In this document: piece after piece, positions 46,744-59,578 of the stretch
How the letters are laid out: the number at the start of each line of letters is the position of its first letter
How positions within the stretch are numbered: position 1 is the stretch's first letter
NCBI RefSeq assembly: GCF_009914755.1
Contig: NC_060931.1
Reading direction: 5' to 3' (one strand)
Length of the DNA stretch: 64,000 bases
From: the human T2T-CHM13v2.0 reference genome, Homo sapiens
Translations under genes and position numbers: made by a program
Notes under the pieces: generated by a model
What the model was told of the DNA's origin: nothing
The model's input: only the letters and a program-made list of their open reading frames with translations
Databases searched by the model: none

Positions 46744-49700
46744 GGTTTGTTACATAGGTATACACGTGACATGGTGGTTTGCTGCACCCATCAACCTGTC
46801 ATCTACATTAGGTATTTCTCCTAGTGCTATCCCTCCCCCTTACCTCCACCCCCTCACAGGAACCGGTGTGTGATGTTCCATTCCCTGTGTCCATATGTTC
46901 TCGTTGTTCAACTCCCACTTATGAGAACATGTGTGGTGTTTGGTTTTCTGTTCTTGTGACAGTTTGCTAAGAATGATGGTTTCTAGCTTCATCCATGTCC
47001 CTGCAAAGGACATGAACTCATCCTTTTTTATGGATGTATAATATTCCATGGTGTATATGTGCCACATTTTCTTTACCTAGTCTATCATTGATGGGCATTC
47101 GGGTTGGTTCCAAGTCTTTGCTATTGTGAACAGTGCTGCAATAAACATATGTGTGCATGTGTCTTTATAATAGAATGGTTCGTAATCCTTTATGTATATA
47201 CCCAGTAATGGGATTGCTGAGGCCAATGGTGTTCCTGGTTCTAGATCCTTGAGGAACCACCACACTATCTTCCACAATGGTTGAACTAATTGATACTTCC
47301 ACCAACAGTGTAAAAGCGTTCCTGTTTCTCCATATCCTCTCTAGCATCCATTGTATCCTGACTTTTAAATGATCACCATTCTAACTGGTGTGAGATGGTA
47401 TCTCATTGTGGTTTTGATTTGTGTTTCTCTAATGACCAGTGATGATGAGCTTTTCTTCATGTTTGTTGGCTGCATAATGTCTTCTTTTGAGAAGTGCTCA
47501 TTCATATTCTTTGCTCACTTTTTGATGGCATTGTTTTTTTCTTGCAAATTTGTTTAAGTTCTTTGTAGATTCTGGATATTAGCCCTTTGTCAGATGGATA
47601 GATTGCAAAATTTTTCTCCCAATCGGCAGGTTGCCTGTTCACTCTGATGATAGTTTCTTTTGCTGTGCAGAAGTTCTTTAGTTTAATTAGATCCCATTTG
47701 TCAATTTTGGCTTTTGTGCCCATTGCTTTTGGTGTTTTAGTCATGAAGTCTTTGCCCATGCCTATGTCCTGAATAGTATTGCCTAGGTTTTCTTCTACAG
47801 TTTTTACGGTTTTAGGTCTTGGGTTTACGTCTTTAATCCATCTTGAGTGAATTTCTGTATAAGGTGTAAGGAAGGGGTCCAGTTTCAGTTTTCTGCATAT
47901 GGCTAGCCAGTTTTCCCGACACCATTTATTAAATAGGGAATCCTTTCCCCATTGATTGTTTTTGTCAGGTTTGTCAAAGGTCAGATGGTTGTAGATGTGT
48001 GGTGTTATTTCTGAGGCCTCTATTGTGTTCCATTGGTCTATATATCTGTTTTGGTACCAGTACCATGCTGTTTTGGTTACTGTAGCCTTGTAGTATGGTT
48101 TGAAGTCAGGTAGCATGATGCCTCCAGCTTTGTTCTTTTTGCTTAGGATTGTCTTGGCTATGCGGGCTCTTTTTTTGTTCCAGATGAAACTTAAAGTAGT
48201 TTTTTTCTAATTCTGTGAAGAAAGTCAATGGTAACTTGATGGGGATAGCACTGAATCTGTAAATTACTTTGGGCAGTATGGCCATTTTCACAATATTGAT
48301 TCTTCCTATCCATGATCATGGGATGTTTTTCCATTTATTTGTGTCCTCTCTGATTTCCTTGAGCAGTGGTTTGTAGTTCTCCTTGAAGAGGTCCTTCACA
48401 TCCCTCGTAGGTTGTATTCCTAGGTATTTTATTCTCTTTGTAGCAATTGTGAATGGAAGTACACTCATAATCTGGCTGTTTTTCTGTTATTGGTTTATAG
48501 GAATGCTTGTGATTTTTGCACATTGATTTTGTATCCTGAGACTTTGCTGAAGTTGCTTATCAGCTTAAGGAGATTTTGGGCTGATATGATGGGGTTTTCT
48601 AAATATACAATCATGTCATCTGCAAACAGAGACAACTTGACTTCCTCTTTTACTATTTGAATACCCTTTATTTCTTTCTCTTGCCTGAACGCCCTGGCCA
48701 GAACTTCCCATACTATGTTGAATAGGAGTCGTAAGAGAGGGCATCCTTGTCTTGTGCCAGTTTTCAAAGGGAATTCTTCCAGTTATTGCCCATTCAGTAT
48801 GGTATTGGCTGTGGGTTTGTCATAAATAGCTCTTATTATTTTGAGATATGTTTCATCAATACCTAGATTATTGAGAATTTTTAGCATGAATGGGTGTTGA
48901 ATTTTGACAAAGGCCTTTTCTGCATCTAATCATGTGGTTTTTGTCATTGATTCTGTTTATGTGATGGATTATGTTTATTGATGTACGTATGTTGAACCAG
49001 CCTTGCATCCCAGGGATGAAGCCGACTTGATTGTGGTAGATAAGCTTTTTGATGTGCTACTGGATTCAGTTTGCCAGTATTTTGTTGAGGATTTTCGCAC
49101 CAATGTTCATCAGGGATATTGGCCTGAAATTTTCTTTTTTTTTTTGTTGTGTCTTGGTATCAGGATGATGATGGCCTCATAAAATGAGGTAGGGAGGATT
49201 CCCTCTTTTTCTATTGATTGGAATCGTTTCAGAAGGAATGGTACCAGCTTCTCTTCGTACCTCTGGTAGAATTTGACTGTGAATCCATCTGGTCCTGGAC
49301 TTTTTGTGGTTGGTAGCCTATTAATTAGTGCCTCAATTTTAGAACTTGTCGTCTATTCAGGGATTCGACTTCTTCCTGGTTTAGACTTTGGAGGATGTAT
49401 GTGTCCAGGAATTTATCCATTTCTTCTAGATTTCCTATTTTATTTGTATAGAGGTGTTTATAGTATTCTCAGATGGTAGTTTGAATTTCCGTGGGATCAC
49501 TGGTGACATCCCCTTTATCATTTTTTATTGCATCTATTTGATTGTTCTCTCTTTTCTTCTTTCTTCGTCTGGCTAGCAGTGTATCTATTTTGTTGATCTT
49601 TTCAAAAAACCAGGTAATGGATTCATTGATTTTTTAGAAGAGTTTTTTGTGTCTCTATTTCCTTCAGTTCTGCTAGCTTTTGAATTTGTTTGCTCTTACT

Positions 49701-56779: not shown

Positions 56780-59578
56780 CAGAATATACACTCTTCTCAG
56801 CACCACATTGCATTTTTTCTAAAATTGACCACATAGTTGGAGGTAAAACAAACACTCCTTAGAAAATCCAAAAGAACAGAAATCATAACAAACAGTCTCT
56901 CAGACACAGTACAATCAAATTAGAACTCAGGATTAAGAAACCCACTCAAAACCGCTCAACTACATGGAAACTGAACAACCTGCTCCTGAATGACTACTGG
57001 GTAAATAACAAAACTAAAGCAGAAATAAGTAAGTAAGTTATTTGAAACCAATGAGTTCAAAGACACAACATACCAGAATCTCTGGCACACAGCTAAAACT
57101 GTGTTTAGAGGGAAATTTATAGCACTAAATGCTCACAGGAGAAAGCAGGAAAGATCTAAAATCAACACCTTAACATCACAATTAAAAGAACTAGAGAAGC
57201 AAGAGTAAATTCAAAAGCTAGCAGAACTCAAGAAATAACTAAGAGCAGAGCTGAAGGTGATAGAGACATGAAACACCCTTAAAAAAATCAATCAAGGAGC
57301 TGTTTTTTTGAAAAGATCAACAATTTAGATATATGGCTAGCCAGACTAAGAAAGAAGAAAAGAGAGAAGAATCAAATAGATTCAATAAAAAATGATAAAG
57401 GGGATATCATCACCGATCCCACAGAAATACAAACCACTATCAGAGCATACTATAAACACCTCTACACAAATAAGCTAGAAAATTTAGAAGAGAGAAATTC
57501 CTGGAAACATACTCCCTCCCATGACTAAACCAGGAGGAAGCTGAATCCCTGAAGAGACCAATAACAAGTTCTAAAATTGAGGCAGTAATTAGTAGCCTAC
57601 CAACCACAAAAAGCCCAGGAACAGACAGATCCACAGCCACATTCTACCAGAGGTACAAAGAGGAGCTGGTACCATTCTTTCTGAAACTACTCCACACAAT
57701 ATAAAAAGAGGGACTCCTCCCTAACTCATTTTATGAGGCCACCATCATCCCGATACCAAAACCTGGCAGATACACAATAAAGAAAAACAAATTTCAGGCC
57801 AATATCCCTGATGAACATTGATGTGAAAATCCACAATCACATACTGGCACATCGAATCCAGCAGCACATCAAAAAGCTTATCCACCATGATCAAGTCGGC
57901 TTCATCCCTGGGATGCAAGGTGGGTTCAACATATGTGAATCAATAAACGTAATCCATCACATAAATAGAACCAATGACAAAAACCACATGATTATCTCAA
58001 TAGATGCAGAAGAGGCCTTTGACAAAATTCAACACCCCTTCATGCTAAAAACTCTCAATAAACTAGGTATTGATGGAACATATCTCAAAATAATAAGAGC
58101 TATTTATGTCAAACCCACAGCCACAGGGCTACAGTAACCAAAACAGCACGGTACTGGTAGCAAAACAGATATAAAAACCAATGGAACACAACCGAGGCCT
58201 CAGAAATAATAACACACATCTACAACCATCTGATCTTTGACAAGCCTAAGAAAAGCAATGGGAAAAGGATTCCCTATTTAATAAATGGTGTCGGGAAAAC
58301 TGGCTAGCCATATGCAGAAAACTGAAACCGGACCCCTTCCTTACACCTTATACAGAAATTCACTCAAGATGGATTAAAGACGTAAACCCAAGACCTAAAA
58401 CCGTAAAAACCGTAGAAGAAAACCTAGGCAATACTATTCAGGACATAGGCATGGGCAAAGACTTCATGACTAAAACACCAAAAGCAATGGCCACAAAAGC
58501 CAAAATTGACAAACGGGATCTAATTAAAGAGCTTCTGCACAGCAAAAGAAACTATCATCAGAGTGAACAGGCAACCTGCTGATTGGGAGAAAAATTTTGC
58601 AATCTATCCATCTGACAAGAGGCTAATATCCAGAATCTACAAAGAACTTAAACAAATTTACAAGAAAACAACAACCCCATGAAAAAGTGGGCGAAGAATA
58701 TGAACAGACACTTCTGAAAAGAAGACATTATGCAGCCAACAAACATGAAAAAAAGCTCATCAACACTGGTCATTAGAGAAATGCAAATCAAAACCACAAT
58801 GAGATACCATCTCACACCAATTAGAATAGTGATCATTTAAAAGTCAGGAAACAATGGATGCTAGAGAGGATGTGGAGAAACAGGAATGCTTTTACACTGT
58901 TGGTGGGACTGTAAATTAGTTCAACCATTGTGGAACACAGCATGGTGATTCCAATGGTGATTCATTGGACCCAGCAATCCCATTACTGGGTATATACACA
59001 AAGGATTATAAATCATTCTATTATAAAGACACATGCACATTTATATTTATTGCAGCACTGTTCACAATAGTGAACACTTGGAACCAACCCAAATGCTCAT
59101 CAATGATAGACTGGATGAAGAAAATGTGGCACGTATACACCATGGAATAGTATGCAGCCATAAAAAAAGGATGAGTTCATGTCCTTTGCAGGGACATGGA
59201 TGAACCTGGAAACTATCATTCTCAGCAAACTAACACAGAAACAGAAAACCAAACACTGCACGTTCTCATTCATAATTGGGAGTTGAACAATGAGAATACA
59301 TGGACACAGGGAGGGGAACATCACACACTGGGGCCTGTCGAGGGGTAGGGTCTAGGGGAGGGATAGCATTAGGAGAAATACCTAAAGTAGATGAAGTAGA
59401 TGATGGATTGATGGGTGCAGCAAATCACCATGGCATGTGTATACCTGTGTAACAAACCTGCACGTTCTGCACATGTACCCCAGAACTTAAAGTATAATTA
59501 AAAAAAGAAACTAAATGTAATTCATATTAAAAAAAGAATATGTTCTTATAAAAAAAAAGATTTCACGTAAGTAGGAGT

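What the first reader, a model, noticed from the sequence alone, without database searches (positions are those of the whole stretch)
46744..59556. ~12.8-kb head-to-head L1 quasi-palindrome with a ~27-bp spacer inside a THSD7A intron
Seen: two near-full-length L1s of the same age class, 5' ends at 53017 (minus) and ~53045 (plus), separated only by aacttctttttttaagatttcacatag. The right element has its own TSD and a TTTT/AA site, so it retrotransposed about 14 bp from the other's 5' end and is not a fold-back duplication. Established: long, closely spaced inverted repeats are unstable (hairpin or cruciform formation, deletion, inversion) and depleted in genomes. Inference: this one survived because the arms were diverged and later interrupted by an LTR, an Alu and a deletion. 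The spacer TSD copy is in the same orientation as the right-flank copy, so there is no net inversion in this haplotype.
Basis: partly seen in the sequence, partly recalled or inferred. Interest (0 to 1): 0.7.

Follow-up and report, generated by a model that had tools for sequence, protein, structure and literature searches.

The report
Back-to-back L1s that swapped sequence
Two old LINE-1 retrotransposons sit head to head, 27 bases apart, in an intron of the human THSD7A gene; they likely inserted one after the other at the same cut point on opposite strands, and two near-identical patches indicate that the arms likely copied sequence from each other long afterwards, which would make the site a slow recombination substrate rather than a frozen relic.

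Summary
The head-to-head L1 pair is real: arms 46740-53017 (-) and 53045-59556 (+), 89.5% identical over 5453 columns. (1) The 27-bp spacer splits into 13 + 14 bp at one T|A step that is an L1-endonuclease site on both strands. The right TSD is clear (12/14). The left TSD survives outside only as a 4-nt remnant, so same-nick insertion is inferred. (2) Two patches are almost identical (4/536 and 6/355 mismatches, background 12.1%). They share alleles that are rare or absent in a 20-copy L1 panel, including an ORF1 stop found in 0 of 18 paralogues. That is the signature of late ectopic gene conversion, far younger than the LTR and Alu interruptions. 'Survived because interrupted' is therefore not supported, and an uninterrupted 93%-identical pair also survives on chr3. 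Such pairs are rare (2 genuine of 6 candidates; about 0.4 expected by chance), showing neither depletion nor enrichment. The geometry matches the unexplained 27-30-bp head-to-head Alu peak (PMC3215922). My Alu tests of the two-TSD explanation are suggestive; the strict TSD test was not significant. No net inversion. Known kinds of event in an unusually clear example.

The parts
46740..53017 (-). Left near-full-length L1 (L1PA7/8-like; label by eye from RepeatMasker-labelled rows and from recall); poly(A) and part of the 3' end lost
46737..46740 (+). 4-nt remnant that fits the start of the left element's outer TSD (weak; inferred)
53018..53030 (+). Left half of spacer (13 bp): inferred inner TSD of the left L1; reads TT|AAAA in the element's orientation
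53031..53044 (+). Right half of spacer (14 bp): inner TSD of the right L1; nick step 53030|53031 (TTTT/AA top strand, TCTT/AA bottom strand)
53045..59556 (+). Right full-length L1 with LTR, Alu and 715-bp deletion; the RefSeq enhancer 53408-53908 lies in its 5' UTR
   Evidence: enhancer from the hub annotation
59557..59570 (+). Outer TSD copy of the right L1 (12/14 match to 53031-53044)
50921..51457 (-). Conversion tract 1, left copy (ORF1 trimer/RRM/CTD region); 4 substitutions in 536 columns plus 2 indels
54586..55134 (+). Conversion tract 1, right copy
50982..50984 (-). In-frame premature ORF1 stop shared with the right arm (55071-55073), present in 0 of 18 paralogues
47587..47946 (-). Conversion tract 2, left copy (ORF2, 3' of RT); 6 substitutions in 355 columns plus a 5-bp indel
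58264..58618 (+). Conversion tract 2, right copy
55358..55811 (.). Old solo LTR in the right arm, 6-bp TSD; best paralogue 87% identical
56479..56779 (-). Old Alu in the right arm, TSD 14/16
58122..58123 (.). Junction of a 715-bp deletion in the right arm (left-arm 48092-48806, RT region)

Best explanation
Two same-subfamily L1s face head to head across a 27-bp spacer; they likely inserted one after the other by nicking the same T|A step on opposite strands, and the arms later likely exchanged two patches by ectopic gene conversion without a net inversion. Step 1 (shown for the right element, inferred for the left): the target reads TTTT/AA on the top strand and TCTT/AA on the bottom. The first insertion leaves that step intact beside its 5' TSD. 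The second nicks the other strand at the same step and so must point the other way, giving a spacer of TSD + TSD (13 + 14). The order is unknown. Step 2 (shown): the right arm gained an LTR, an Alu and a deletion, and the left arm lost its tail. Step 3 (patches shown, mechanism inferred): double-strand-break repair using the other arm as template copied about 540 bp and about 360 bp, at roughly 6% and 14% of the arms' divergence time. With recalled L1PA7/8 ages of 30-40 My, that is a few million years ago. No cellular function is claimed; it is a recombination substrate in an intron.
For: Tracts have 4/536 and 6/355 mismatches against a 12.1% background of 4520 columns. 0 of 5000 permutations reach this. 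The lowest 350-column count is 1 for L/R, against at least 18 for each of 20 other L1s versus L, and at least 14 among 151 paralogue pairs. Shared rare alleles are 14/537 and 9/356, against 33/4194 elsewhere; the shared:private ratio is 14:3 and 9:8 against 33:371 (p 4e-12 and 6e-6). A shared premature ORF1 stop occurs in 0/18 paralogues, so the copying came after decay. The third L1 in the window differs by 8-11% from both arms in the tracts. Both 5' ends sit one TSD length (13, 14 bp) from the same T|A step. The outer flanks map roughly collinearly on L1 ORF2, as halves of one older antisense L1 host (weak hits). Alu parallel: head-to-head pairs peak at 27-30 bp (PMC3215922). TYTTAA makes up 78/119 of TTAA sites at head-to-head Alu ends, against 2415/9828 for all intact-5' Alus. 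One step nickable on both strands is present in 24/40 and 28/40 spacers (shuffles 3.5 and 4.6).
Against: The left TSD has only a 4-nt outer remnant, part of which could also be L1 3'-end sequence. The chr3 pair has a ~56-bp spacer, no recognisable left TSD and no clear tract, so neither feature is general. The strict test that both Alu TSDs abut was not significant with any caller: 1/6, 2/4 with p=0.11, and 4/14 with p=0.10 plus 1/6. The TYTTAA excess is partly forced by spacer geometry. Rare-allele load in tract 1 (15-16) is below what either arm as donor predicts (24.8 and 31.1), so the donor is unresolved and the copying may be patchy. No orthologue or second haplotype could be examined.
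Confidence: 0.75

Rival explanations
1. The two tracts are the breakpoints of two successive crossovers (inversion and re-inversion). The centre is back in ancestral orientation, but the 3-kb segments between the tracts were swapped between the arms.
For: Conversion commonly accompanies crossover (own knowledge). Two tracts is the number a double flip needs. Inverted L1 pairs mediate inversions (PMC2603318, PMC9675761). Private-allele counts differ somewhat between the middle (L:R 74:107) and outer (36:30) segments, p=0.06.
Against: The inner (31:56) and middle (74:107) segments lean the same way (p=0.43), whereas a swap predicts opposite signs. Both arms follow the same paralogue group in all five segments, although that also leaves the test little power.
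Confidence: 0.15
2. One reading: an intrinsically unstable quasi-palindrome that was stabilised by divergence and by later interruptions.
For: The central 300 nt fold at -108.5 kcal/mol with DNA parameters (no shuffle control run). Divergence lowers hairpin and recombination rates (own knowledge). HR-type L1 rearrangements have a median 93.5% similarity (PMC9675761), above the 89.5% here.
Against: The tracts post-date the interruptions. All interruptions lie more than 2.3 kb from the centre. An uninterrupted 93.3% pair survives on chr3. No depletion is visible in the counts.
Confidence: 0.1
3. The near-identical tracts are an assembly or polishing artefact (reads of one arm corrected the other).
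For: Only one assembly was available, and inverted repeats can mislead read mapping (own knowledge).
Against: The tracts keep 4 and 6 substitutions plus indels of 11, 1 and 5 bp and have sharp ends. The rest of the arms is not homogenised.
Confidence: 0.04
4. One event made both arms (fold-back duplication, twin priming, or two L1 RNAs priming both ends of one blunt break).
For: Both nicks map to one base step, which would be a blunt break if the two cuts were simultaneous.
Against: The arms differ by 12% with private mutations on both sides, as between unrelated copies. The intact target sequence is retained between the 5' ends, which end-priming at a blunt break would not leave (inference). 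The right element has an ordinary TSD.
Confidence: 0.05

Closest known systems
Head-to-head Alu pairs with 24-36-bp spacers ('Type 3 APE', Cook et al. 2011, PMC3215922; passages and supplement part 2 of 4 read)
   Same: Head-to-head orientation, a 27-bp spacer inside their 27-30-bp peak, and the same L1 ORF2p machinery.
   Different: Here the elements are 6-kb L1s. The authors left the mechanism open (nucleosomes, or L1EN anchored to an Alu 5' end); in the passages read they do not propose two abutting TSDs at one nick step.
Non-allelic gene conversion between neighbouring repeats (Zhi 2007; Aleshin and Zhi 2010; seen only as citations in PMC3670932)
   Same: Local homogenisation of neighbouring repeat copies after insertion.
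   Different: That work is recalled as statistical and on Alu. Here there are two discrete, datable 0.36-0.54-kb tracts between inverted L1s, with a shared nonsense allele.
Retrotransposon recombination-mediated inversions / TEMR inversions (PMC2603318, passages and Table S1; PMC9675761, passages and parts of the supplementary table)
   Same: Inverted L1 pair as a recombination substrate; the TSD test of ancestral state.
   Different: TSDs are not swapped here. The locus is not among the 49 RRMI rows or the chr7 TEMR rows viewed (15 of 23).
Double insertion at one target site (Drosophila TE dimers, PMC5932611; passages read)
   Same: Two insertions at one site, with the target preserved at the junction.
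   Different: Those are mostly head-to-tail with one TSD at the junction. Here they are opposite-strand insertions with two different TSDs side by side.

Membership tests
Independent TPRT insertion of full-length L1 | L1 5' end, ORF1 and RT domains | tested here: met
   (both arms)
Independent TPRT insertion of full-length L1 | poly(A), TSD and endonuclease site, right element | tested here: met
   TSD 12/14; TCTT/AA on the bottom strand
Independent TPRT insertion of full-length L1 | poly(A), TSD and endonuclease site, left element | tested here: inconclusive
   canonical TT|AAAA 13 bp from the 5' end, but the tail is lost and only 4 nt of the outer copy remain
L1PA7/L1PA8 subfamily | diagnostic positions against a subfamily library | not testable with these tools
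   no repeat library; resemblance by eye to labelled rows and recall; both arms fall in one paralogue group
Head-to-head pair, Type 3 APE (Cook 2011) | head-to-head with a 24-36-bp spacer | tested here: met
   27 bp
Head-to-head pair, Type 3 APE (Cook 2011) | both members are full-length Alu | tested here: not met
   both are L1: an analogue, not a member
Head-to-head pair, Type 3 APE (Cook 2011) | class enriched over chance or over direct pairs | tested here: inconclusive
   1 exact-motif L1 pair against 0.37 expected for 20-120-bp gaps; direct pairs not counted
Non-allelic gene conversion | bounded tract of near-identity in diverged paralogues | tested here: met
Non-allelic gene conversion | shared derived alleles absent from other copies | tested here: met
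Non-allelic gene conversion | no exchange of flanking markers | tested here: inconclusive
   no net inversion by TSD; double crossover neither supported nor excluded
Non-allelic gene conversion | unconverted state in an orthologue or another haplotype | not testable with these tools
   no primate genomes or human haplotypes held
RRMI / TE-mediated inversion | TSDs of the two elements no longer match (swapped) | tested here: not met
   the right inner TSD matches the right flank; a swapped case was seen elsewhere, L097
Fold-back inverted duplication / twin priming | arms of one origin with a single outer TSD | tested here: not met
   12% divergence, private mutations in both arms, own TSD on the right element

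The most novel reading that the evidence does not exclude
L1 ORF2p re-nicks, on the opposite strand, the T|A step left beside an earlier insertion's 5' TSD whenever that step is cleavable both ways. This one rule builds head-to-head pairs spaced by two TSDs: it explains the unexplained 27-30-bp Alu peak and extends it to full-length L1. In addition, the THSD7A pair is still an active recombination substrate, with tract 1 specific to the human lineage or polymorphic, and seeding rare inversions of the central 3 kb.
Probability: 0.4. Interest if true: 0.65.

Novelty: new member of a known kind. Interest (0 to 1): 0.5.

Why it matters
It turns a 'lucky survivor' story into two testable ones. First, a simple target-site rule (spacer = two TSDs meeting at one doubly cleavable step) could close the question that Cook et al. 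left open about an 'uncharacterized inverted Alu insertion mechanism'; it can be tested on RepeatMasker output and on de novo insertion libraries. Second, discrete and datable conversion tracts show that L1 arms about 88% identical and broken by insertions still recombine. Conversion lengthens the perfect matches (runs of 175 and 137 bp), which would raise the later chance of inversion at this intron. No effect on THSD7A expression or disease is shown.

Tried and rejected
Subfamily-swap and private-allele tests for a hidden double inversion gave no support and have low power. The donor direction of conversion is unresolved. The tract search in the chr3 pair found no clear tract (140, 624 and 269 of 5000 permutations reach the observed value at 200, 350 and 530 columns). 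Four of the 6 survey candidates (chr6, chr11, chr13, chr18) have only one L1 5' end by BLAST and were dropped. Three automatic TSD callers were run on 80 head-to-head Alu loci (first 40 rows; 40 of the first 41 rows, one inverted duplicate left out). None gave a significant abutting result. Counting pure T-run gaps as abutting gives 6/14 in the young set, and 0 of the 4 spacers of 39 bp or more abut, but both counts are post hoc. The 600/1104 central-TTAA count was judged not discriminating by itself. L019 was dropped from the paralogue panel as a near-duplicate of L018; the panel is 19 of the 40 paralogues planned, plus the window's third L1. Hairpin-centre template switching was rejected because the central 1.5 kb is not homogenised. 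Template switching at insertion time was rejected because the tracts are too young. The host-flank search gave only weak hits. Literature: 10 searches found no paper on this locus and none stating the two-TSD rule; the library lacks most subscription papers. Porubsky 2022 and Aleshin and Zhi 2010 were not held, so the large inversion call sets are unchecked.
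Full report
Observation. Self-comparison confirms an inverted pair spanning about 46740-59556. A global alignment gives 89.5% identity over 5453 columns. The right arm carries a 467-column gap (LTR), a 317-column gap (Alu) and a 715-bp deletion. Pfam finds ORF1 trimer, RBD and dsRBD domains and RVT_1 in the arms (8 hits in 7 of 12 frames scanned). The spacer is 53018-53044, 27 bp. 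The pair lies inside one THSD7A intron (hub annotation).

Junction. Read in each element's own orientation, both 5' ends are preceded by a TT|AA step at TSD distance, 13 bp for the left and 14 bp for the right, and it is the same base step, 53030|53031. The top strand reads TTTT/AA and the bottom strand TCTT/AA; both are L1-endonuclease-type sites (consensus as cited in PMC3215922; the variant from own knowledge). The right TSD recurs behind the right poly(A) at 59557-59570 (12/14). The left element has lost its tail and about 20 bp of its 3' end, and only 4 nt at 46737-46740 fit its outer TSD, so that half is inferred. The outer flanks map roughly collinearly on L1 ORF2, as parts of one older antisense L1 (weak hits). 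The simplest history is two sequential insertions at one step on opposite strands; either order gives the same product.

Tracts. Identity along the arms is not uniform. A two-state HMM finds exactly two tracts under three settings. Tract 1 (50921-51457 / 54586-55134) has 4 mismatches in 536 columns, and tract 2 (47587-47946 / 58264-58618) has 6 in 355, against 12.1% over 4520 background columns. No permutation of 5000 comes near. Controls: the window's third L1 (8700-13414) differs by 8-11% from both arms there. Against 19 genomic paralogues (one duplicate dropped) plus that copy, no sequence has fewer than 18 mismatches to L in any 350 columns, and no pair of 151 has fewer than 14, versus 1 for L/R. 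Inside the tracts the arms share rare alleles (14/537, 9/356, against 33/4194) and have few private ones. One shared allele is an in-frame ORF1 stop where all 18 paralogues have the same sense codon. The copying therefore happened after decay began. Residual divergence is 6% (2-16%) and 14% (5-30%) of background; with recalled subfamily ages this is a few million years, a rough figure. The LTR (best paralogue 87% among 39 others listed) and the Alu (at least 12% from 72 panel copies) are much older. The donor arm is unresolved, and tract 1 carries fewer rare alleles than either donor predicts.

Inversion. The TSD test of Lee et al. (PMC2603318, passages) says the centre is in ancestral orientation. 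A double crossover at the two tracts would also pass this test. Private-allele balance (31:56, 74:107, 36:30) and group-diagnostic sites do not support it but have low power. The locus is not among the 49 RRMI rows or the 15 of 23 chr7 TEMR rows viewed. The deletion sheet is sorted by position and jumps from 0.6 to 26 Mb, and GRCh38 coordinates were only estimated. Larger inversion call sets could not be read.

How common. The genome holds 6720 exact copies of the L1PA 5'-end motif. Head-to-head within 20-120 bp there is 1 exact match, this locus. With up to 2 mismatches there are 6 candidates, of which 2 are genuine. Chance expectation for exact motifs is 0.37 before clustering. So such pairs are rare, but no rarer than chance; older L1 families with other 5' ends are not covered. 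The second pair (G000:C3, about 61.254 Mb) is 93.3% identical over 6120 columns, uninterrupted, with a ~56-bp spacer and no clear tract. It weakens the idea that interruption is needed for survival, and it also shows that the two-TSD spacer and the tracts are not universal.

Known counterpart and side test. Cook et al. 2011 (PMC3215922; passages, supplement part 2) report that head-to-head Alu pairs with 24-36-bp spacers, peaking at 27-30, outnumber direct pairs, and they leave the mechanism open. The L1 junction suggests that such spacers are two TSDs meeting at one doubly cleavable step. For it: 1104 such Alu pairs were found. TYTTAA accounts for 40/56 and 38/63 of TTAA sites at their ends, against 2415/9828 for all intact-5' Alus; this is partly forced by geometry. 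A both-strand site lies 7-22 nt from both ends in 24/40 and 28/40 spacers, against 3.5 and 4.6 in shuffles, but shuffles ignore that every Alu brings one site. Clean abutting examples include L060, L091, L098, L108 and L111. Against it or undecided: both TSDs were callable in only 14/40 young and 6/40 older loci, with a gap of at most 1 in 4/14 (null 0.13, p=0.10) and 1/6; the earlier callers gave 1/6 and 2/4. The rule is suggestive, not established. Ten searches did not find it or this locus in print, within an open-access library.

Verdict. The structure is real. It is an L1-scale analogue of the head-to-head Alu class and a clear case of late non-allelic gene conversion. Each ingredient is a known kind of event. 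The value lies in the datable tracts, which contradict the stabilised-relic reading, and in a testable rule for an open question. Shown: arms, spacer, right TSD, tracts, shared stop, relative ages. Inferred: left TSD, same-nick sequence of events, repair mechanism, absolute dates. Untested: polymorphism and any effect on THSD7A.

Noticed in passing
L097 (G000:C6:30512864-30512920): Head-to-head Alu pair whose TSDs appear swapped: the 15-nt sequence beside the right Alu's 5' end recurs behind the left Alu's tail. This indicates that the spacer was inverted by recombination between the two Alus.
   Followed up: partly
L031/L032 (G000:C3:61247300-61261000): A second full-length head-to-head L1 pair, 93.3% identical, uninterrupted, ~56-bp spacer; right TSD present, left TSD not recognised.
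   Followed up: partly
G000:C14:28742476 and C14:28755351: The same head-to-head Alu junction occurs twice, in opposite orientation, 12.9 kb apart, suggesting an inverted duplication.
   Followed up: no
window 59500-59556: About 45 nt of non-L1 sequence with a second A-run and an ATTAAA lies between the right L1's canonical end and its TSD; possibly a short 3' transduction.
   Followed up: no
window 53408-53908: The annotated enhancer lies in the right L1's 5' UTR, where the antisense promoter is expected (recalled). It and the left L1's sense promoter would both point in the THSD7A direction.
   Followed up: no
window 8700-13414 and 60466-61280: A third, 5'-truncated L1 of the same group (minus strand), and an L1 3' fragment (plus strand) that also pairs in inverted orientation with the left arm.
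   Followed up: partly
window ~59590-60070: A second solo LTR just right of the pair, with a short end similarity to the LTR inside the right arm.
   Followed up: no
window 51718-51817, 50218-50317, 47318-47417: Bins with 4 shared rare alleles each and modest divergence; possibly older short conversion patches, not called by the HMM.
   Followed up: partly
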